Positions 682-36,703 of a DNA stretch of 39,034 nt are shown here, piece by piece. The notes under the pieces were generated by a model, which saw only the letters and a list, made by a program, of their open reading frames with translations, was not told the DNA's origin and did not search any database. Source of the stretch: a virus; the UHGV virus genome UHGV-0388326, one strand, 5' to 3'. The position numbers and the translations under genes are program-made. Each line of letters opens with the position of its first letter. Position 1 is the stretch's first letter.

Positions 682-722
682 GAGTAGATTATGCATGATG
701 AATTTGATGGGTTTTGAATACT

Positions 723-748
723 GCCGCCAACTATGGCGGCTTTATTTT
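723..748 (+). terminator. Rho-independent terminator-like hairpin upstream of terS
   Basis: GCCGCC-AACTAT-GGCGGC followed by TTTATTTT. Confidence 0.5.
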
Positions 749-759
749 GCATGGTACTA

Positions 760-792
760 TTACCACAACGGTAACTATTACCACGGTGGTTA
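760..792. promoter_or_regulatory. two overlapping TTACC-N5-GGTAA inverted-repeat sites abutting terS start
   Basis: 760-774 TTACCACAACGGTAA; 778-792 TTACCACGGTGGTTA (one mismatch). Confidence 0.5.
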
Positions 793-1388
793 TGATGCCT
801 GCTGAACCTAAAACCTATAAACGCAAATCAACGCAATTTAAGCCACTAACAGCAATGCAGGAGGCTTATTGCCAGTCATACATCAAAACGCCTGAAAACC
901 AGACTCAGGCAGCGATTAACGCAGGATTCTCCCCAAATACAGCGGCAGTTAAAGCCAGTGTCATGATGCGCGATGAACGCATTCAAAAACGGATTGCCGA
1001 GTTGATGGAGGAGCGCAACAAACGAATGCGCGTCAGTGCTGATTACGTTCTCATGCGCCTGGTGGAGATCGACCAGATGGACGTGATCGACATCCTCAAC
1101 GACGATGGGAGCCTTAAACCAATCCGTGAGTGGCCGAAAATCTGGCGCACTACGCTTAGTGGCTTTGATCTGTCATCGACCATCATGAACATGAACGAGG
1201 ATTCGATAGAGACAATCCTCAAAAAAATTAAATGGCCTGACAAGGTGAAGAACCTTGAGCTGATTGGTAAGCATGTTGATGTCAACGCGTTCAAAGAACG
1301 TCTGGATGTTAATGTGAATGTGACAATTGCTGATCGCATAGCAGCAGCCAGGAAGCGACTCAAAGAACGTCAGGATGGTAATCAGTGA
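792..1388 (+). CDS. terS: terminase small subunit
   Basis: Immediately precedes terL with overlapping stop/start; HTH-like region typical of small terminases; start chosen at ATG 792 (ORF track opens at 714). Confidence 0.7.
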   Translation: MMPAEPKTYKRKSTQFKPLTAMQEAYCQSYIKTPENQTQAAINAGFSPNTAAVKASVMMRDERIQKRIAELMEERNKRMRVSADYVLMRLVEIDQMDVIDILNDDGSLKPIREWPKIWRTTLSGFDLSSTIMNMNEDSIETILKKIKWPDKVKNLELIGKHVDVNAFKERLDVNVNVTIADRIAAARKRLKERQDGNQ

Positions 1389-3289: not shown

Positions 3290-3402
3290 AATCTCACCTT
3301 AAAAAAATGCCCGGCGAACCAGGCGAACTGGAAGCAATGAGTTATGCCTTCCGTGGCTGTACGGGTTTACAGCATGAAGTCATCGCAATGGCGTCCTGCT
3401 GT

Positions 3403-3443
3403 AAAAAGGGCGGTGATAGTCCTTCAAGGGAAACCATCACCGC
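3403..3443 (-). terminator. Rho-independent terminator downstream of tRNA-Arg
   Basis: minus-strand hairpin GGCGGTGAT...ATCACCGCC followed by CTTTTT. Confidence 0.6.
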
Positions 3444-3487
3444 CAAGCACCTGGAACTTCTGGCATCACGGTCCTTAGGCGTGATTC

Positions 3488-3564
3488 TGGCGTGGCATGC
3501 AGGATTCGAACCTGCGACCAACCGCTTAGAAGGCGGTTGCTCTGTCCAACTGAGCTAATGCCAC
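3488..3564 (-). tRNA. tRNA-Arg, anticodon UCU (reads AGA), CCA encoded
   Basis: Minus-strand 77 nt GTGGCATTAGCTCAGTTGGACAGAGCAACCGCCTTCTAAGCGGTTGGTCGCAGGTTCGAATCCTGCATGCCACGCCA; 7-bp acceptor stem GTGGCAT/ATGCCAC, D-arm GCTC/GAGC, anticodon loop CTTCTAA, T-loop TTCGAAT. Confidence 0.9.
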
Positions 3565-3886: not shown

Positions 3887-3901
3887 TTACCTGAAAGGTA
3901 A
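3887..3901. promoter_or_regulatory. TTACC-N5-GGTAA site upstream of virion gene operon
   Basis: TTACCTGAAAGGTAA in AT-rich region before gene at 3992. Confidence 0.5.
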
Positions 3902-3991
3902 TAATTTGTGCGTTAAATGTCAACTATCTACGATAAATAAATCATATGTGGTTAAATTGGTAATAATTTAATTGCGTACGGAGTCATTGAT

Positions 3992-17519: not shown

Positions 17520-19994
17520 ATGAGACAGGAATGTATACAAGCGGTCCAGCAGGCGGCGCAGCGCACGTTAACGGCGCGAGAAATACAGAACATTGAAGAC
17601 CGCATTTATCGAAATATGCGCTCCATTGCTCGTGATGACCCGATGTCGTGGAGACAACTTTCCGAATCAGAGCGGCTATATCGTGCAGCACAATTGGCAT
17701 CTGAAGAATTACAGCGAGAAGCGGCATTAAAGAAACGTCGTGTGGCCCTCACTATAGCCGCACGTCAGAGATTGGATAAATTTATCAATAGCTATCAAGG
17801 GGCTGATGGGAAACTTGGCGCTCTTAACCGTACTATTGCTTTTAATGCAGACGGTAAATCGAATTTCCTCTCTGTTGAGTCCAGAACAAAAGCCACTCGT
17901 GATTATGCATTGAGTCAATTGCAAGAGGCATTTGAAGCAGTTGATCCTCGCTTTTTTGGCCTGTTTGAAGATGAAGCTGGCGTGCGTGACCTGGTATATG
18001 AAATGCGAGGGCAAAATACTGGCAATGCTAAAGCAAGAAAAGGTGCTAAGGCGTGGAGAGAAGTTACAGAGCTGCTGCGCCGCCGGTTTAATGATGCTGG
18101 TGGAGACATTGGCTATCTCGAAAACTGGGGGATCCCTCAACATCATTCTATGGAAAAGGTTGGGGCGGTATCAAAGGATAAGTGGGTTGGCGATGTTATA
18201 GGTAAGCTGGATCGCAAATATTATACCCGAGCCGATGGACAACTGATGAACGATGCCGAGTTGTCTGCATTTCTTGGAGAGGCTTATAACACGATCGCTA
18301 CTGGTGGGCTGAATAAGCTTACTGATACCGGAATGCGAATTTCCGGCGCACGTGCTAACCGTGGTAATGCATCACGACAGATACATTTCAAAGATGCAGA
18401 TTCCTATCTCCAATATCAACAACTTTATGGTGATCGCTCTCTATGGGAAATCATGGTCGGTCACTTGGAAGGTATCAGTAAAGATATTGCTCTGGTGGAA
18501 ACATATGGTCCAAACCCCGATCATGTTTTCCGCTCCCTTCTTGATCAGGTTAAGGCAGAAACGGCAACAGCTAACCCGAGTAAAACCGGTAGCGTCGAGC
18601 GTCTGGCGAACAAAACAGAGAACTTGTACAACTTTATTTCCGGAAAGACACAGCCTGTAGCGAATCCGCACATCGCGCGATGGTCTGACAATATCCGCAA
18701 CTGGCTGGTTGCCAGCAGACTCGGATCCGCGTTGCTGTCATCGTTCTCTGATCTTGGAACCATGTATCTGTCTGCGAAGGTTACCAACCTTCCAATGAAC
18801 CAGTTATTTCGCAACCAGCTTGAAGCTATGGACCCAACGAACCGTACTGAGCTTGCGCGGGCGCGCCGCGCTGGCCTGGCGATGGAATCTCTACTTGGCA
18901 GCGTTAACCGCTGGGCGATGGATAATATGGGGCCGTCTGTGTCTCGTTGGGCGGCAACGGCGGTAATGCGTGCCAGTGGGCTTACAGCATGGTCAGATGC
19001 GCACAAGCGCGCCTATGGCGTAACCATGATGGGAAGCCTGGGAGAAGTAGTGTCACGGACACCAGACCTTCGTAGCCTCGATGACTCTGATTTTCGTATC
19101 CTGAAAAGCAAAGGGATTACTGACACAGACTGGAGCGTATGGAAGCTGGCGCAACAGGAGGACTGGGGGAACGGTAATAATACGATGCTGACACCGGAAA
19201 GCATTATGCGTATCCCTGATTCAGCAGTTAAACATCTTGGTGAGCCTGAACGTGTGAAATTTGAGGCAATGCGTAAACTGCTCGGTGCCGTAACTGAAGA
19301 AGTTGATATGGCTGTTATTACACCGGGCGCACGTGAACAGATGTTCGTAGGGTCTGGTCTTCAGCGTGGAACATGGAAAGGTGAATTAACGAGAAGTGTT
19401 TTCCTGTTTAAATCGTTCCCTATCTCGGTAGTTATGCGTCACTGGCATAGAGCTATGGGGATGCCGTCTGCTGGTGGGCGTGCGGCATATATAGCAACGT
19501 TTTTAGCAAGCACAACCATGCTTGGTGCTCTTTCCATGCAGATTACTGATCTTATTAATGGGAGAAATCCAAAAGAAATGACCGGTGACAACATGGTTAA
19601 ATTCTGGATAAATGCATTTTTAAAAGGTGGTGGGGCAGGGTTGTATGGTGATTTTCTTTTCTCTGACCACACCAGGTACGGGAGCGGCGCACTAGCGTCG
19701 ATGCTTGGCCCGGTAGCTGGTCTGGTTGATGACGTAGTGAAGATTGCTCAGGGCATACCGTTAAATGCTGTGGAAGGGAAGAATGAGCAGACTGGTGGTG
19801 ATTTGGTTAAGCTTGGGAAAGGTTTGATGCCTGGTGCGAATCTCTGGTATTTGAAGGCGGCTCTCGATCACATGATCTTTAACCAGATGCAGGAGTATTT
19901 TTCACCAGGCTATTTGCGTAAAATGGAGCAACGTTCAAAGAAAGAGTTTAACCAGACATACTGGTGGCGACCTCAGGATGTCACTCCGCAATAA
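17520..19994 (+). CDS. internal virion / ejection protein (large)
   Basis: 824 aa, last gene of structural operon before accessory cluster. Confidence 0.5.
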   Translation: MRQECIQAVQQAAQRTLTAREIQNIEDRIYRNMRSIARDDPMSWRQLSESERLYRAAQLASEELQREAALKKRRVALTIAARQRLDKFINSYQGADGKLGALNRTIAFNADGKSNFLSVESRTKATRDYALSQLQEAFEAVDPRFFGLFEDEAGVRDLVYEMRGQNTGNAKARKGAKAWREVTELLRRRFNDAGGDIGYLENWGIPQHHSMEKVGAVSKDKWVGDVIGKLDRKYYTRADGQLMNDAELSAFLGEAYNTIATGGLNKLTDTGMRISGARANRGNASRQIHFKDADSYLQYQQLYGDRSLWEIMVGHLEGISKDIALVETYGPNPDHVFRSLLDQVKAETATANPSKTGSVERLANKTENLYNFISGKTQPVANPHIARWSDNIRNWLVASRLGSALLSSFSDLGTMYLSAKVTNLPMNQLFRNQLEAMDPTNRTELARARRAGLAMESLLGSVNRWAMDNMGPSVSRWAATAVMRASGLTAWSDAHKRAYGVTMMGSLGEVVSRTPDLRSLDDSDFRILKSKGITDTDWSVWKLAQQEDWGNGNNTMLTPESIMRIPDSAVKHLGEPERVKFEAMRKLLGAVTEEVDMAVITPGAREQMFVGSGLQRGTWKGELTRSVFLFKSFPISVVMRHWHRAMGMPSAGGRAAYIATFLASTTMLGALSMQITDLINGRNPKEMTGDNMVKFWINAFLKGGGAGLYGDFLFSDHTRYGSGALASMLGPVAGLVDDVVKIAQGIPLNAVEGKNEQTGGDLVKLGKGLMPGANLWYLKAALDHMIFNQMQEYFSPGYLRKMEQRSKKEFNQTYWWRPQDVTPQ

Positions 19995-28439: not shown

Positions 28440-28454
28440 TTACCTTAAAGGTAT
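28440..28454. promoter_or_regulatory. TTACC-N5-GGTAA-like site upstream of int
   Basis: TTACCTTAAAGGTAT (one mismatch), nested between inverted GACGGTAT repeats. Confidence 0.4.
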
Positions 28455-32233: not shown

Positions 32234-33051
32234 ATGTACATATCCTGTTTGCGTGCCCACTCAGGGCGTTTAATGATTTCCACACCGCCCCATTCATCAT
32301 TTATGCGGCATTCGTGATAGGTATTCAGATCCCGGCGGAACAGAGCGTTCCCGGCATCGACATCCGGCGCATCCAGCTCGAACACGCGTACCGGATACCG
32401 ACCACAATCAATGCTTTCGCTCACGGCAAGAAAGAAAAAACCATGCGGCTGACCAGTAACCCTCATTGCGCCTTCGCGGTACATTGCGTCCTGCACGTGG
32501 TAGCGGAATTCCTCGATGTGGCGTGCAAAACGGTCCATATCTGCAACCTTTTTTACGTCGACGATCACGTTGTGCTCGTTCAGCCATTTGTCTGGACGAA
32601 TGCGGCACAACTCACCAGTCTCTTCATCATTCCAGTACATTGATGCTTCGCAGTAACCAGGTGCTTCCAGCATCCAGCGTGCCGCCGGGTGAGCCATTGC
32701 GCTATCACGCATCAGCTCCAGTTTCCGCCACTGCTCGGCATCAAGTACCGTAATCCCCATATCCGCTACATCACGAAGAAATGCTTCTTCGTCAGCTTTA
32801 CCTTGTTTCGTCCGACGATCGAACTTCGGTGAAACAATGAAGCGTTTGTCGAATTCTCCAGGCTCCAGAAGCAGACAGTGCAATGCGGTTCCAATATCCA
32901 GTGCAGACTTTTTCTCTTCGTCTTCTGGTGCTGCCTGGACCCATTTAAGAAGCGCCGGATTCTTGGCAACCATGTCCAGTTGCGACTTACTCACGCCGTC
33001 ACCGGCGTGGTAGTCTTCGTTGCTGATGTCGAAATAAATTCCCGGTTTCAT
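32230..33051 (-). CDS. exonuclease, PD-(D/E)XK superfamily (exonuclease VIII/RecE-like)
   Basis: 273 aa; N-terminus GIYFDISNEDYHAG and downstream D...E.K pattern; paired with SSAP. Confidence 0.6.
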   Translation of the reverse strand: MKPGIYFDISNEDYHAGDGVSKSQLDMVAKNPALLKWVQAAPEDEEKKSALDIGTALHCLLLEPGEFDKRFIVSPKFDRRTKQGKADEEAFLRDVADMGITVLDAEQWRKLELMRDSAMAHPAARWMLEAPGYCEASMYWNDEETGELCRIRPDKWLNEHNVIVDVKKVADMDRFARHIEEFRYHVQDAMYREGAMRVTGQPHGFFFLAVSESIDCGRYPVRVFELDAPDVDAGNALFRRDLNTYHECRINDEWGGVEIIKRPEWARKQDMYI

Positions 33052-33521: not shown

Positions 33522-33598
33522 TTACCGTTGAGGTAATAATTATGCGTATCTGGTTTGATGTCAATAGATATGAGTTAAAAAAATTACCCGTTAGGTAA
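33522..33598. promoter_or_regulatory. OL-like region with two TTACC-N5-GGTAA operators
   Basis: 33522-33536 TTACCGTTGAGGTAA; 33584-33598 TTACCCGTTAGGTAA; between repressor terminator and early-left operon. Confidence 0.6.
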
Positions 33599-33655: not shown

Positions 33656-34240
33656 TTATTGTTTGTTTTTTTCGTTCTGGTTGATGACAAATTCAATGTA
33701 ACTTTCGATCTTTGCCTTCTCTGTTTCAGGTAACAATGCGTAGCGCGAGCGGTCATAGTTGATAGTTGCAGGATCATGCGGATGAATCAGTAGTTCATAT
33801 CCGTGACGCCCGAATGCAGATGCAACATTCTCCAGGGTGGAAATGGAAACGCTGACCTCATTGTTTAACAGGCGGCTTATTGTCACCTGGGCGACGCCGG
33901 ATGCGCGGTGAAGTTTTCCCTGAGTTGAAAGGTCGCGGCTTTCACTCATCCAGCGTTCCAGGTTGTGAGCCGCCAGTTGACCAATGTCGCTTGGTCCGAC
34001 AGGCTGAAAACCTTCCTGAGAAAGCGAGCGATCGATATCAAGCCAGTTACGGGGTTTATTGGCGGCAGCTTCAATTTTTCGCGCAACCTGGTCGCCGATA
34101 ACCTTCTTGCCAAGAGCCCAGCGGTTTACCAGATTTGCCTGAGTTCCAAGTTTTTCAGCCATCCGCGTCTGAACACCATTGAATTCACGGTCGATCAAGT
34201 CGTTGAGATTTTGCCTGCGGACGTCCTGGATACTTTTCAT
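33656..34240 (-). CDS. prophage repressor candidate, tandem HTH (XRE-like) domains, no peptidase S24 domain evident
   Basis: 194 aa; HTH-like segments MAEKLGTQANLVNRWALGKK and ASGVAQVTISRLLNNEVSVSISTLENVASAFG; located between operator arrays in lambda cI position. Confidence 0.6.
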   Translation of the reverse strand: MKSIQDVRRQNLNDLIDREFNGVQTRMAEKLGTQANLVNRWALGKKVIGDQVARKIEAAANKPRNWLDIDRSLSQEGFQPVGPSDIGQLAAHNLERWMSESRDLSTQGKLHRASGVAQVTISRLLNNEVSVSISTLENVASAFGRHGYELLIHPHDPATINYDRSRYALLPETEKAKIESYIEFVINQNEKNKQ

Positions 34241-34295: not shown

Positions 34296-34358
34296 TTACC
34301 CAACAGGTAAATGCACCTCATGGGTAACTATCCTTGATTTTTGTTACCTTATAGGTGA
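34296..34358. promoter_or_regulatory. OR-like region: three tandem TTACC-N5-GGTAA operators between divergent repressor and cro-like genes
   Basis: 34296-34310 TTACCCAACAGGTAA; 34313-34327 GCACCTCATGGGTAA; 34344-34358 TTACCTTATAGGTGA. Confidence 0.65.
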
Positions 34359-34394: not shown

Positions 34395-34625
34395 ATGAGC
34401 GATAACGGACATTTCGATTTCAAAAAGCACTGGCTTGCACTTACTCCGGATGAGCGTGAAGCCTTCGCACAGGAAGCCGGAACGACGAGTCACTATATCC
34501 AGACTCACTTAACAGGTAAGCGCAAAATGCCAGGTAAGGTATTGATGGATGGGCTTTTTAAAGCCTGTAAATCAAGACAATGGCTGCGCTCAAAAGCAGA
34601 ACTGGCATACTTCTTCTACTCATGA
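34395..34625 (+). CDS. Cro/CII-like small HTH regulator (tentative)
   Basis: 76 aa, first gene rightward of operator array; HTH-like LTPDEREAFAQEAGTTSHYIQTHLTGKRK. Confidence 0.45.
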   Translation: MSDNGHFDFKKHWLALTPDEREAFAQEAGTTSHYIQTHLTGKRKMPGKVLMDGLFKACKSRQWLRSKAELAYFFYS

Positions 34626-34647
34626 TATCCAGCCACAACCCTCTGTA

Positions 34648-34672
34648 GACCGCCATCCGGCGGTCTTTTCAT
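34648..34672 (+). terminator. tR1-like terminator after cro-like gene
   Basis: GACCGCC-ATCC-GGCGGTC followed by TTTTC. Confidence 0.6.
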
Positions 34673-34680
34673 ATCTATTC

Positions 34681-34695
34681 GTACCTCAAAGGTAA
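34681..34695. promoter_or_regulatory. TTACC-N5-GGTAA-like site
   Basis: GTACCTCAAAGGTAA (one mismatch). Confidence 0.4.
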
Positions 34696-34775
34696 TAAAA
34701 AACCAAATATGGTTGATCTTTTTTTTGTGTCAGCACAAAATAACCGTAATCCCAATACTAATAACAGGGCTTACC

Positions 34776-34991: not shown

Positions 34992-35807
34992 ATGAGCAGA
35001 CATGCAACAGATTGGGCCTGGGAGACAGATCCAGGTAGCTCGTCATTAAAGCTCATACTGCTCTCGATGGCTGACAGAGCCGATGAATATAACCTCTGCT
35101 ACCCCAGCATAGAACGCCTCGTTAAAGACACTTGCCTGAATAAAAAAACCGTGCAGGCCGGACTTATATCGCTCATGAAAATGGGGCTTATTTCAGATAC
35201 CGGGGAGAGAAAGGGAGCGACAAAAAGAGTGCGGGTTTTCTCTCTTAATATAACCAAAAACGGGAACATTAAAGGCAACCGAGAGGGGGGCAATGAACCC
35301 GAAAACGGTAATGTTACCGAAAACGGGAATATACCCAAAAACGGGATGTTGAATGATCCCAAAAACGGGATGTTGAATGATCCCAAAAACGGGATCCAGA
35401 ACCAGTCATATAACCAGTCATTTAACCAAGAGAGGGAGAGCAGGACAAAAAACGGGGATTCTGTGCATCATGACCCCGGCGCAAACAACGCCGTGATGAA
35501 TAACTTTGTTCCTCCTGGTGGGTCAGGGCAATTAGGCAAATTTGTCATGCATGAACAATGGCAGCCATCAGATGACTTTCTTCGGAAAAGCTCATTGCAG
35601 GGGATCTACCTGGACAGTCTGCCAACGGCACAGGAACTTGCAGAGTTCAGAATTTACTGGATGGCTGAGGGTAAGGCATACCATCAGGCACAGTGGGAGC
35701 AGAAGCTGGCAAGGCGGCTGCAGATTAGCAGACAGAAGCAATCAACATTACCTGATAACAACGTTCCGCACTGGAACAGCCCTGAAGCATGGGAGGATTT
35801 CTTGTGA
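34992..35807 (+). CDS. replication initiator (lambda O-like role) with internal iterons
   Basis: N-terminal winged-helix-like region LKLILLSMADRADEYNLCYPSIERLVKDT; internal repeat array; followed by P-like gene. Confidence 0.6.
   Translation: MSRHATDWAWETDPGSSSLKLILLSMADRADEYNLCYPSIERLVKDTCLNKKTVQAGLISLMKMGLISDTGERKGATKRVRVFSLNITKNGNIKGNREGGNEPENGNVTENGNIPKNGMLNDPKNGMLNDPKNGIQNQSYNQSFNQERESRTKNGDSVHHDPGANNAVMNNFVPPGGSGQLGKFVMHEQWQPSDDFLRKSSLQGIYLDSLPTAQELAEFRIYWMAEGKAYHQAQWEQKLARRLQISRQKQSTLPDNNVPHWNSPEAWEDFL
35256..35393 (+). repeat. iteron array (putative ori) inside replication initiator gene
   Basis: About six copies of AAAACGG(G/T)A at roughly 20-bp spacing, including perfect tandem CCCAAAAACGGGATGTTGAATGAT x2. 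Confidence 0.6.
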
Positions 35808-36589
35808 ACAACGTTTTTACCGCGATACAAAACCGTGACGGAGAAGCCCTTTCTCGCATGTCAGGTTATGAGCATCAGTACGTCAACAATGACAATGTGG
35901 TGAACATGTCAGCAGAGAGGCTTGTTGATACCCTTTTTAAACAGCTGAAACAACTGTTTCCGGCGGCAGTGGTAACCAACCTGAAGACGCCAGAGCAGGA
36001 AGTTGCTGCAAAACAGCAGTGGATTGCTGCGTTTGCCGAAGGGGGGATCCGAACCCGTGAACAGGTTTCTGCTGGTATGCGCCACGCCCGCGCCAGTGAG
36101 TCTCCGTTCTGGCCGTCTCCAGGGCAATTTATCAAGTGGTGCAAAGACAGCAAGATGGTTCTTGGCGTCACCATTGACGATGTGATGGCGGAGTTTCACC
36201 GGTACAGCAAGGAAAAAAGTTTATATCCTGGTGGTCCCGAAAGATTCCCGTGGCGACATCCGGTTATGTACTGGGTTGTATGTGATACCCGCCGTGCAAT
36301 GTATCAGCGCCAGCTTAGCGAGATTGAGGTTGAGAAACACGCGCGCAGGCTGCTCGATGATTGGGCGAAAAAGGTGGCTTCCGGACAGCAGATACCCGAT
36401 CCGGTGATCAGCATACAGGCAAAGCCAGAACCCATGAGTACGCCTCCGGACACAGGGAGAGACGTTTACCACCCGCCAGGGCGAAGTTTCGGGTGCATGC
36501 CTAACGCCGCCACCCTGGGGGGAATAACACCGGCGCAGTGGCTGATGGAGGAATACAGGCGGGGAAAGGCGGCAGGATTTATCAAGTAA
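35789..36589 (+). CDS. replication protein P-like (helicase loader)
   Basis: segment EVAAKQQWIAAFAEGGIRTREQVSAGMRHARASESPFWPSPGQFIKWCKD closely parallels lambda P as recalled (RRQWVLAFRENGITTMEQVNAGMRVARRQNRPFLPSPGQFVAWCRE). Confidence 0.75.
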   Translation: MGGFLVNNVFTAIQNRDGEALSRMSGYEHQYVNNDNVVNMSAERLVDTLFKQLKQLFPAAVVTNLKTPEQEVAAKQQWIAAFAEGGIRTREQVSAGMRHARASESPFWPSPGQFIKWCKDSKMVLGVTIDDVMAEFHRYSKEKSLYPGGPERFPWRHPVMYWVVCDTRRAMYQRQLSEIEVEKHARRLLDDWAKKVASGQQIPDPVISIQAKPEPMSTPPDTGRDVYHPPGRSFGCMPNAATLGGITPAQWLMEEYRRGKAAGFIK

Positions 36590-36626: not shown

Positions 36627-36703
36627 TTACCTGCTGGGTAATAAAATATTCTAAAATCTATTGATTTCGTGTCTTATGTGGTTTTTAATTACCTAAGAGG
36701 TAA
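36627..36703. promoter_or_regulatory. two TTACC-N5-GGTAA sites upstream of DUF1064 gene
   Basis: 36627-36641 TTACCTGCTGGGTAA; 36689-36703 TTACCTAAGAGGTAA overlapping the RBS, ATG at 36707. Confidence 0.5.

What the first reader, a model, noticed from the sequence alone, without database searches (positions are those of the whole stretch)
34296..34358. Genome-wide family of a 15-bp inverted repeat TTACC-N5-GGTAA in nearly every promoter region
At least 16 copies by eye: 760-774, 778-792, 3887-3901, 21415-21429, 22475-22489, 22855-22869, 26263-26277, 28440-28454, 33522-33536, 33584-33598, 34296-34310, 34313-34327, 34344-34358, 34681-34695, 36627-36641, 36689-36703. All lie in intergenic regions, none seen inside long coding regions. 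Three tandem copies sit between the divergent repressor and cro-like genes and two sit at the head of the early-left operon, which is the classic operator arrangement. The surprise is that the same site also precedes late genes (terS, virion operon), ant, the LexA-boxed gene, the acyltransferase/lysis divergent region and int. That suggests either one repressor silencing almost the whole genome, or a promoter element for a phage-specific factor.
Basis: seen in the sequence. Interest (0 to 1): 0.85.

Follow-up and report, generated by a model that had tools for sequence, protein, structure and literature searches.

The report
Repressor operator sites scattered across prophage
The repeated 15-bp palindrome is real and is almost certainly the binding site of this phiV10/epsilon15-type phage's lysogeny repressor, copied in front of most transcription units; the same sites are already annotated as repressor-binding sites in the epsilon15 GenBank record, so it is a sound but essentially known feature.

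Summary
TTACC-N5-GGTAA occurs 10 times exactly (0.05 expected) and 15 times with at most 1 mismatch (0.67 expected). All 16 listed coordinates are correct, and all lie in the 8% of the window that is non-coding.

The window is a phiV10-like temperate podophage (genus Uetakevirus). The same palindrome occurs 13-18 times per genome, at orthologous positions, in epsilon15, SPC32H, Tyrion, BUCT554 and BUCT711. The epsilon15 GenBank record already annotates seven copies as 'protein_bind: repressor', including those before terS, the portal operon and the tailspike gene.

The repressor (33656-34240, minus strand) is a full-length homologue of SPC32H Rep (PDB 5D50), described in the literature as a tetramer inactivated by a LexA-controlled antirepressor; that antirepressor is also present here.

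Conserved promoter geometry supports direct repression:
- Sites cover the start point of PL, of the terS promoter and of an immI-like c4/ant operon.
- One site lies between the -35 and -10 of PR.
- Pairs exactly 62 bp apart bracket PL and a second rightward promoter in all six lineages.

Some "late-gene" sites may instead serve divergent leftward promoters (tRNA-Arg, ant, oac). A separate conserved element, CATATGTGGTT, marks the probable late promoters.

Verdict: a dispersed operator regulon, already known in kind and by annotation; binding remains untested here.

The parts
760..774 (.). Operator, terS-proximal pair, site 1 (TTACCACAACGGTAA)
   Evidence: Exact match. Abuts a conserved extended -10, TGnTA(C/G)TAT, at 752-760 (A5). 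The epsilon15 orthologue is annotated as repressor-binding.
778..792 (.). Operator, terS pair, site 2 (1 mismatch); overlaps the terS RBS, with ATG at 795
   Evidence: The 18-bp spacing to site 1 is conserved in epsilon15.
3887..3901 (.). Operator between tRNA-Arg (minus strand) and the portal operon (plus strand)
   Evidence: Exact match and invariant in 7 genomes (A3). An invariant minus-strand TTGACA (3923-3918) lies 17 nt from TACCTT inside the site. tRNA-Arg lies at 3488-3564 on the minus strand.
21415..21429 (.). Operator upstream of two small minus-strand genes (21079-21297, 20711-21088)
   Evidence: Exact match. On the minus strand TACTAT abuts the site. A weak 2-mismatch site lies at 21369.
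22475..22489 (.). Operator over the start point of a leftward promoter (TTTGCA-18-TATATT, 22518-22489) driving isrK-like RNA, C4 antisense RNA and the Bro-N antirepressor
   Evidence: Bro-N Pfam match, E 3.6e-19.
22855..22869 (.). Operator in the divergent ant/tailspike region; abuts TTGCAA, the candidate -35 of the LexA-boxed ant promoter
   Evidence: The epsilon15 orthologue is annotated as repressor-binding.
26263..26277 (.). Operator in the divergent oac/lysis region (1 mismatch, TCACC)
   Evidence: conserved in 6 genomes although the left flank and cargo genes differ (A6).
28440..28454 (.). Operator 43 bp upstream of int, 134 bp right of the attP core; its right half, GGTAT, forms a possible -10 (TATACT)
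   Evidence: The same mismatch is conserved in phiV10, epsilon15, SPC32H and Tyrion. The attP core lies at 28290-28306.
33522..33536 (.). OL-proximal operator; the last T of the PL -10 (AATTAT) is the first T of the site
   Evidence: TTGACA-17-AATTAT, 33564-33536, minus strand; A9.
33584..33598 (.). OL-distal operator, 62 bp from the proximal one, upstream of the PL -35
   Evidence: The 62-bp (63 in BUCT711) spacing holds in all lineages.
34296..34310 (.). OR site nearest the repressor gene
   Evidence: A7.
34313..34327 (.). Middle OR site, degenerate here (2 mismatches)
   Evidence: It is a perfect site in epsilon15 and SPC32H.
34344..34358 (.). OR site between the -35 (TTGTTA, 34341-46) and -10 (TATTAT, 34364-69) of PR
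34681..34695 (.). Operator just after the terminator that follows the cro-like gene, before the replication genes (1 mismatch, GTACC)
   Evidence: terminator at 34647-34666. The same mismatch occurs in phiV10 and Tyrion.
36627..36641 (.). Distal operator of a second rightward promoter module ('PR2'), just after a terminator
   Evidence: A8. The epsilon15 orthologue is annotated as repressor-binding.
36689..36703 (.). Proximal operator of PR2. The -10 (TTTAAT, 36684-89) ends on its first T; it overlaps the RBS and start of the DUF1064 gene (ATG 36707)
   Evidence: A8, with -35 TTGATT at 36661-66 and a 17-nt spacer. The 62-bp spacing to the distal site is conserved.
33656..34240 (-). Rep, the lysogeny repressor: N-terminal CI-type HTH domain followed by dimerisation and tetramerisation domains
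   Evidence: PDB 5D50 chain A, E 4e-42, residues 1-190. N36-LVNRW41 is invariant (A1). 100% identical to the phiV10/ZX5 repressor, which blocks lytic growth when overexpressed (PMC9782041).
34395..34625 (+). Cro-like small regulator; probable second ligand of the same sites
   Evidence: phrog_35 'transcriptional repressor', E 8.7e-13. 59-84% identical across the genus, with invariant AGTTSHYIQ (A2).
22521..22778 (-). Small antirepressor Ant, with a LexA box at 22800-22815
   Evidence: PDB 5D50 chain E, E 4e-47. LexA box CTGTATATTTATACAG.

Best explanation
The 15-bp palindromes (extended consensus ATTACC-N5-GGTAAT, half-site centres 10 bp apart) are the operators of the phage's lysogeny repressor Rep (33656-34240, minus strand). 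At least at OR, the Cro-like protein probably binds them too. One HTH dimer would read the two ACC/GGT cores on one face of the helix. According to the literature on its SPC32H homologue, Rep is a tetramer carrying two DNA-binding pairs, so one tetramer could hold two operators. This would explain the conserved 62-bp pairs (about 6 helical turns) that bracket PL and PR2, and the 17-18-bp tandems at OR and terS. Where promoters can be recognised, the site covers the -10/+1 junction (PL, PR2, terS, the c4/Bro-ant operon) or the -35/-10 spacer (PR). Bound Rep would therefore exclude RNA polymerase. In a lysogen one protein would thus directly shut off early-left, early-right, replication, packaging, int and both antirepressor operons. 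Induction would occur when LexA cleavage releases the small Ant, which removes Rep from DNA. What is shown: enrichment, intergenic restriction, conservation, promoter overlap, and homology of Rep and Ant. What is inferred: which protein binds, tetramer bridging, and the effect at the portal, tailspike and lysis sites.
For: Enrichment is 200-fold and restricted to non-coding DNA. There are 13-18 sites per genome (about 0.5 expected) at orthologous positions in six lineages from four host genera. Half-sites are invariant while spacers and flanks vary. The arrangement is triple at the rep/cro divergent region and double at the head of the early-left operon. Promoter overlaps are listed. Rep is a full-length homologue of SPC32H Rep. 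Its N-terminal domain is more conserved than the rest (54% against 39% identity to epsilon15) and has an invariant NLVNRW helix. That domain is also related to the DNA-binding domains of lambdoid CI repressors. Papers state that SPC32H Rep binds palindromic sites as a tetramer, with DNA-binding pairs from different dimers, and that its architecture is of a looping type (PMC9638917; PMC9986798). The identical repressor abolishes lysin and holin transcription when overexpressed (PMC9782041). The epsilon15 GenBank record annotates the orthologous sites as repressor-binding.
Against: No binding data could be read for any site in this phage. The primary SPC32H and epsilon15 papers are not in the library. 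At the portal, tailspike and lysis units the site lies about 65-80 bp upstream of the inferred late start, too far for simple occlusion. oac is a lysogenic-conversion gene expected to be ON in lysogens, yet it has a site in its upstream region. The motif is identical across repressors only 42% identical. This is explained by the conserved helix, but it would equally fit the better-conserved Cro-like protein as the main ligand.
Confidence: 0.85

Rival explanations
1. The dispersed sites are mainly targets of the Cro-like lytic regulator (34395-34625) rather than of Rep. It would turn down or coordinate transcription units during lytic growth, and Rep would matter only at OR and OL.
For: The Cro-like protein is more conserved (59-84%) than Rep (42-78%), matching the invariance of the motif. 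It matches a 'transcriptional repressor' PHROG. Sharing operators between CI and Cro is the rule in lambdoid phages (established knowledge).
Against: This reading is not exclusive of the main explanation. The paired 62-bp geometry fits a tetramer with two DNA-binding pairs, as described for Rep, better than a 76-aa protein. Sites at int, ant and the c4/Bro-ant operon make most sense as lysogenic silencing.
Confidence: 0.08
2. The palindrome is a promoter or upstream activating element for a phage-specific transcription factor, for example the regulator encoded just before terS (332-673).
For: At the portal, tailspike and lysis units the site lies at a conserved, indel-free distance upstream of a conserved late-promoter-like block. 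The half-site GGTAAT recurs in the putative -10 region of two of these units.
Against: The same element sits over +1 or inside core promoters at PL, PR, PR2 and terS. It occurs at lysogenic (int, rep) and early units and is a perfect palindrome. The three late units share a different motif (CATATGTGGTT), which is the better late-promoter candidate. The operator-to-motif distance differs between units (56, 44, 47 bp).
Confidence: 0.04
3. A host regulator binds the sites. Seven of the 16 contain a perfect ACCT-N3-AGGT, the palindrome recognised by the E. coli antitoxin MqsA.
For: There are 7 matches to ACCT-N3-AGGT against 0.36 expected. This MqsA palindrome is documented in PMC5422877. By eye, MqsA's DNA-binding residues Asn97 and Arg101 (PMC5422877) align with invariant Rep residues N36 and R40.
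Against: Nine sites lack the T/A at positions 6 and 10. The conserved flanks are TT/AA, not MqsA's TAACCT/AGGTTA. BLASTP finds no Rep-MqsA alignment. The classic operator layout around rep/cro points to a phage protein. The resemblance more likely reflects a shared recognition code.
Confidence: 0.02
4. The repeats act as RNA or DNA hairpins (terminators, processing sites) rather than as protein-binding sites.
For: Each can form a 5-7-bp hairpin (-3.3 to -5.9 kcal/mol).
Against: The hairpins are weak and have no U-tract. Across about 70 copies the stem sequence itself is invariant, with no compensatory changes. Real terminators lie next to several sites.
Confidence: 0.01

Closest known systems
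Repressor-binding sites annotated in Salmonella phage epsilon15 (GenBank AY150271.2 / NC_004775.2) and the Rep-Ant switch of Salmonella phage SPC32H (PDB 5D50, 5D4Z)
   Same: Same genus, same gene order and the same 15-17-bp palindrome at orthologous positions: terS, portal, ant/tailspike, OL and PR2 are annotated as 'repressor' sites in epsilon15. Rep and Ant are homologous, and a LexA box lies upstream of ant.
   Different: Rep here is only 42% identical. This lineage adds sites at a c4/isrK/Bro-ant operon (22475), at 21415 and at 34681. The epsilon15 record annotates 7 sites, while 14-15 are detectable, including OR, int and the lysis region. Binding to the dispersed sites has not, to my knowledge, been shown experimentally.
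Phage P1 C1 repressor and its many operators dispersed over the genome, including Op51 at the immI (c4-icd-ant) operon
   Same: One primary repressor has more than 10 operators scattered over the genome. These include one at the promoter of an operon encoding a C4 antisense RNA followed by an antirepressor (Rfam C4 hit at 22254-22337).
   Different: P1 operators are asymmetric 17-mers and C1 is unrelated to Rep (from general knowledge, not tested here). Here the sites are palindromes read by a CI-type HTH.
Lambda-type OR/OL operators
   Same: There is a triple operator between divergent repressor and cro-like genes and multiple operators at PL. The Rep N-terminal domain resembles lambdoid CI DNA-binding domains.
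   Different: There is no S24 autocleavage domain; induction is by antirepressor. Operators also occur outside the immunity region.
Mycobacteriophage L5 gp71 'stoperators'
   Same: A single repressor has tens of sites genome-wide that silence the prophage.
   Different: Stoperators are asymmetric, oriented with transcription, and lie within operons to block elongation. Here the sites are symmetric and restricted to promoter-bearing intergenic regions.

Membership tests
Uetakevirus (epsilon15/SPC32H-type) Rep-Ant lysogeny switch | Rep homologue with an N-terminal DNA-binding domain plus dimerisation and tetramerisation domains | tested here: met
   phmmer against PDB 5D50_A gives E 4e-42 over residues 1-190; the C-terminal fragment 5D4Z gives E 4e-20.
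Uetakevirus (epsilon15/SPC32H-type) Rep-Ant lysogeny switch | Small (about 86 aa) antirepressor homologous to SPC32H Ant | tested here: met
   Window 22521-22778 (minus strand) against 5D50_E gives E 4e-47, near full length.
Uetakevirus (epsilon15/SPC32H-type) Rep-Ant lysogeny switch | LexA box at the ant promoter | tested here: met
   CTGTATATTTATACAG at 22800-22815, 21 bp upstream of the ant start codon, conserved in 7 genomes.
Uetakevirus (epsilon15/SPC32H-type) Rep-Ant lysogeny switch | Rep physically binds the palindromic operators and is displaced by Ant | not testable with these tools
   Only secondary statements were available (PMC9638917; PMC9986798). The primary papers are not held.
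epsilon15 annotated repressor-binding site family | ATTACC-N5-GGTAAT at orthologous intergenic positions | tested here: met
   The epsilon15 features at 12-27, 2931-2947, 19895-19911, 32479-32632 and 35906-35922 carry the same motif. They align with window sites 760, 3887, 22855, 33522/33584 and 36627.
Lambda CI-type repressor (RecA-stimulated autocleavage) | C-terminal Peptidase_S24 / LexA-like cleavage domain | tested here: not met
   Pfam finds only HTH families (HTH_3 at 106-147; a weak YdaS-like HTH at 21-61) and no S24 domain.
P1 C1 dispersed-operator regulon | Primary repressor operator at the promoter of a c4 RNA-antirepressor operon | tested here: met
   Operator 22475-22489 abuts the -10 of the promoter-like site at 22518-22489. 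Downstream lie isrK-like and C4 RNAs and a Bro-N protein. This rests on position only; regulation is untested.
P1 C1 dispersed-operator regulon | Asymmetric 17-bp operator and a C1-family repressor | tested here: not met
   The sites are perfect palindromes. Rep matches SPC32H Rep and CI-type HTH domains. No direct comparison with C1 was run.
Mycobacteriophage stoperators | Asymmetric sites inside transcription units, oriented with transcription | tested here: not met
   The sites are palindromic, and none lies in coding sequence or in short intra-operon gaps.

The most novel reading that the evidence does not exclude
The portal, tailspike and lysis units each carry a composite module: an operator at a fixed, indel-free distance upstream of a separate conserved late-promoter element (CATATGTGGTT-N7-TAnnAn, with no -35). 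This leaves open that the palindrome is dual-use. Bound by tetrameric Rep it would silence, by looping to half-sites in the late -10 region. Bound by the Cro-like protein or another phage factor it would help to fire the late promoters. Together with the own promoter of terS, this would mean the group runs its late genes from several independently gated promoters rather than from a lambda-style single antiterminated late transcript.
Probability: 0.12. Interest if true: 0.55.

Novelty: already known. Interest (0 to 1): 0.28.

Why it matters
This Rep occurs 100% identical in at least 80 IMG/VR contigs, with 317 confirmed relatives, and phiV10-type phages are used as O157 reporter and typing phages. 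Knowing that one repressor has about 16 operators gives a complete candidate map of what is silenced in the lysogen: packaging, int, replication and two antirepressor operons. It also makes the tetramer-looping model proposed from the SPC32H structure testable on natural 62-bp operator pairs. As a discovery it adds little, because the motif and its interpretation are already in the epsilon15 annotation.

Tried and rejected
- The primary papers could not be read: Kropinski 2007 (epsilon15 genome), Kim & Ryu 2013 and Kim et al. 2016 (SPC32H Rep/Ant) are not held. A literal search for the motif in the paper library found nothing.
- I looked for an independent link between the Rep DNA-binding domain and the motif outside the genus, without success. 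The search for homologous proteins with the N-terminal domain returned only fragments of the same protein. The search for related loci returned 80 loci, all 100% identical. The only distant phage fetched (Pseudomonas PseuP_224 cI, 39% over 65 aa) has no such sites, which is uninformative at that distance.
- AlphaFold on the single Rep sequence gave pLDDT 45, so it was not used and no fold search was run. Alignment A1 could not be submitted because it contains sequences from other records.
- BLASTP of the Rep N-terminal domain against MqsA gave no alignment. The N36/R40 to N97/R101 correspondence is therefore only a by-eye HTH alignment.
- The hairpin/terminator reading was rejected.
- A canonical sigma-70 promoter could not be assigned at the portal, tailspike, lysis or 34681 sites.

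Full report
**What the window is.** Megablast places the window at 97-98% identity, over most of its length, to Escherichia phages phiV10, phiv142-3, PAS61 and ZX5. It is about 76-81% identical to Enterobacter phage Tyrion and Salmonella phage epsilon15. These are temperate podophages of the genus Uetakevirus. The window is a complete or near-complete genome of that type. Window position 674 corresponds to phiV10 position 1.

**The observation.**
- TTACC-N5-GGTAA occurs 10 times exactly (0.05 expected from shuffles) and 15 times with at most 1 mismatch (0.67 expected; no shuffle came close).
The 16th (34313-34327) has two mismatches. It sits 2 bp from the site at 34296, and its counterpart is a perfect copy in epsilon15 and SPC32H.
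- With a hand-curated gene map, all 16 sites fall in the 8.1% of the window that is non-coding.
- 11 of 20 intergenic gaps of 30 bp or more have a site. The nine without are convergent gene ends or short gaps inside operons.
- The two terS sites lie inside the terS CDS as annotated for phiV10. The alignment shows a conserved ATG at window 795, which is where epsilon15 and Tyrion start the gene.
- In 69 sites from five genomes, mismatches occur only at the outer positions. A3, C4, G12 and T13 never vary. The spacer is A/T-rich, and positions 6 and 10 favour T and A.

**It is a genus-wide, already annotated feature.**
- The same palindrome occurs at orthologous positions as follows (about 0.5 expected in each genome):

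| Genome | Sites with at most 1 mismatch |
|---|---|
| phiV10 | 14 |
| epsilon15 | 15 |
| SPC32H | 18 |
| Tyrion | 15 |
| BUCT711 (Klebsiella) | 13 |
| BUCT554 (Enterobacter) | 14 |

- The shared positions are two sites before terS, one before the portal operon, one between ant and tailspike, and one between the conversion genes and the lysis cassette. There is also one before int, two or three at the head of the early-left operon, three between rep and cro, and two before the DUF1064/RuvC gene.
- The epsilon15 GenBank record carries seven 'protein_bind, repressor, lysogeny' features. Each proved to be ATTACC-N5-GGTAAT. They include the sites before terS, the portal operon and the tailspike gene.
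- In the alignments of each region, the half-sites are invariant while spacers and flanks vary. Upstream sequence is often unalignable (A3-A9).

**The protein.**
- The ORF at 33656-34240 (minus strand) is 100% identical to the phiV10/ZX5 repressor. Overexpressing that repressor abolishes free-phage production and cuts lysin and holin transcripts by 99.97% or more (PMC9782041).
- It is a full-length homologue (E 4e-42) of SPC32H Rep, PDB 5D50.
- Secondary literature describes SPC32H Rep as follows. It has an N-terminal DNA-binding domain, a middle dimerisation domain and a C-terminal tetramerisation domain. It binds palindromic sites as a tetramer whose DNA-binding pairs come from different dimers. 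The two pairs are about 100 Å apart, and the tetramer is disassembled by a tetrameric antirepressor (PMC9638917; PMC9986798).
- The antirepressor is present here at 22521-22778 (minus strand), with E 4e-47 to 5D50 chain E. A perfect LexA box lies 21 bp upstream of its start.
- Rep has no S24 cleavage domain.
- Across the genus the Rep N-terminal domain is better conserved than the rest (54% against 39% identity to epsilon15). N36-L-V-N-R-W41 is invariant, which accounts for one operator sequence being shared by repressors only 42% identical.
- The N-terminal domain also resembles the DNA-binding domains of lambdoid CI proteins such as H-19B, SfV and BP-4795, at 33-42% identity with weak E-values.
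- The divergent Cro-like gene (34395-34625) is even more conserved and probably shares the sites.

**Promoter geometry.**
- *PL.* A TTGACA-17-AATTAT promoter (33564-33536, minus strand) has the last T of its -10 as the first T of the proximal operator. The distal operator lies just upstream of the -35. This layout is conserved in all seven genomes (A9).
- *PR2.* The pair 36627/36689 is the same module pointing rightwards: terminator, distal operator, CTATTGAtt (-35), 17 nt, TTTAAT, then a proximal operator that also covers the RBS and ATG of the next gene (A8).
- *Pair spacing.* In both modules the centre-to-centre distance is 62 bp (63 once) in all six lineages. That is about six helical turns, as expected if one tetramer holds both sites with the promoter between them.
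- *PR.* It reads TTGTTA-17-TATTAT, with operator 34344 lying between the two hexamers and overlapping the -35.
- *terS.* A conserved extended -10 (TGnTA(C/G)TAT, 752-760) again ends on the first T of the first operator. The second operator covers the RBS (A5). This unit sits just after a terminator (723-740), so the packaging operon appears to have its own Rep-gated promoter.
- *Operator 22475.* It abuts the -10 of TTTGCA-18-TATATT. That leftward promoter leads into an isrK-like RNA and a C4 antisense RNA (Rfam, above the gathering thresholds), followed by a Bro-N antirepressor-like gene. The arrangement parallels P1 immI, which is controlled by C1 at Op51.
- *Operator 22855.* It abuts a TTGCAA that is the candidate -35 of the LexA-boxed ant promoter.
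- *Operator 28440.* Its conserved 'mismatch' creates TATACT, a possible int -10.

**Where the simple model is weak.**
- At the portal, tailspike and lysis units I found a second, separate conserved block to the right of the operator. It starts 56, 44 and 47 bp from the operator start and reads CATAT(G/A)TGGTT-N7-TAATAA/TAATAG/TATGAT. There is no -35, and it is invariant across the genus.
- This is the likeliest late-promoter element. It puts the operators at about -65 to -80, too far for occlusion.
- In these three regions the operator is better placed for a leftward promoter:
  - an invariant minus-strand TTGACA lies 17 nt from TACCTT inside operator 3887, pointing at tRNA-Arg(UCU) at 3488-3564;
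  - the ant promoter lies beside operator 22855;
  - a possible oac promoter lies at 26263.
- Direct Rep control of late genes is thus positionally supported for terS only and is open for the rest. A site upstream of oac, a conversion gene expected to be expressed in lysogens, is unexplained.

**Rivals.**
- A promoter-element reading is disfavoured by the palindromic symmetry, the variable placement and the existence of the separate late motif.
- Hairpins are weak (-3.3 to -5.9 kcal/mol) and lack U-tracts, and the stems show sequence conservation rather than covariation.
- Seven sites contain ACCT-N3-AGGT (0.36 expected), the palindrome bound by the E. coli antitoxin MqsA (PMC5422877).
- By eye, MqsA's DNA-binding residues Asn97 and Arg101 line up with the invariant Rep residues N36 and R40. 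BLASTP sees no similarity (MqsA sequence verified).
- I treat this as a shared recognition code and a low-probability lead for host cross-talk.

**Verdict.** The closest parallels are the epsilon15/SPC32H Rep system (membership met on every testable feature) and, functionally, the dispersed C1 operators of P1. Binding itself was not testable here.

Noticed in passing
window 3943-3953, 22899-22909, 26310-26320 (weaker copies 36673-36683 and 34701-34710 on the minus strand): A second conserved intergenic motif, CATAT(G/A)TGGTT, is followed 7 nt later by a -10-like hexamer (TAATAA, TAATAG, TATGAT) with no -35. It is invariant in 6-7 Uetakevirus genomes upstream of the portal, tailspike and lysis operons and is a candidate activator-dependent late promoter. 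ATATNTGGTT occurs 7 times against 0.26 expected.
   Followed up: partly
window 22254-22337 (-) and 22362-22438 (-): There are Rfam hits above the gathering scores to C4 antisense RNA (66 bits) and isrK Hfq-binding RNA (63.5 bits). They lie between a Rep-controlled promoter and a Bro-N antirepressor-like gene (21495-22220, minus strand). This is a P1 immI-like second antirepressor module, in addition to the LexA-controlled small Ant.
   Followed up: partly
window 3488-3564 (-): A tRNA-Arg (anticodon TCT) was found by ARAGORN and Rfam. It overlaps the plus-strand ORF 3307-3558, which corresponds to phiV10 'hypothetical protein' p04, so that ORF is probably spurious.
   Followed up: partly
window 714-794: The phiV10 RefSeq terS start (equivalent to window 714, a TTG) is probably wrong. 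The conserved ATG at 795 matches the epsilon15 and Tyrion starts and leaves a terminator, an extended -10 and two operators upstream.
   Followed up: yes
window 35246-35398: Six iteron-like direct repeats of about 18-24 bp (core CCCAAAAACGGGA, itself partly palindromic) lie inside the replication-initiator gene (34992-35807). This is a likely origin of replication, as in lambda O.
   Followed up: partly
window 22800-22815 and 22521-22778 (-): A perfect LexA box (CTGTATATTTATACAG) lies 21 bp upstream of a small Ant that is very similar to SPC32H Ant (E 4e-47), although Rep is only 42% identical to SPC32H Rep. The antirepressor is thus far more conserved than its target.
   Followed up: partly
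window 28290-28306: The attP core ATTGAGTGGGAATGATT, as reported for phiV10, epsilon15 and ZX5, is present. The int-proximal operator (28440) lies 134 bp to its right, within what would be the attP arm. In epsilon15 an annotated Int arm site (26873-26882) overlaps the first base of the orthologous operator at 26882-26896.
   Followed up: no
window 3889-3899, 22477-22487, 26265-26275, 28442-28452, 34346-34356, 34683-34693, 36691-36701: Seven operators contain a perfect MqsA-type palindrome, ACCT-N3-AGGT (0.36 expected). Host antitoxin MqsA could in principle recognise them.
   Followed up: partly
window 22899-22936: The tailspike late-promoter block is itself a long imperfect palindrome: CATATGTGGTT-N16-AACCAGATATG, centred on GGTAATAG.
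   Followed up: no
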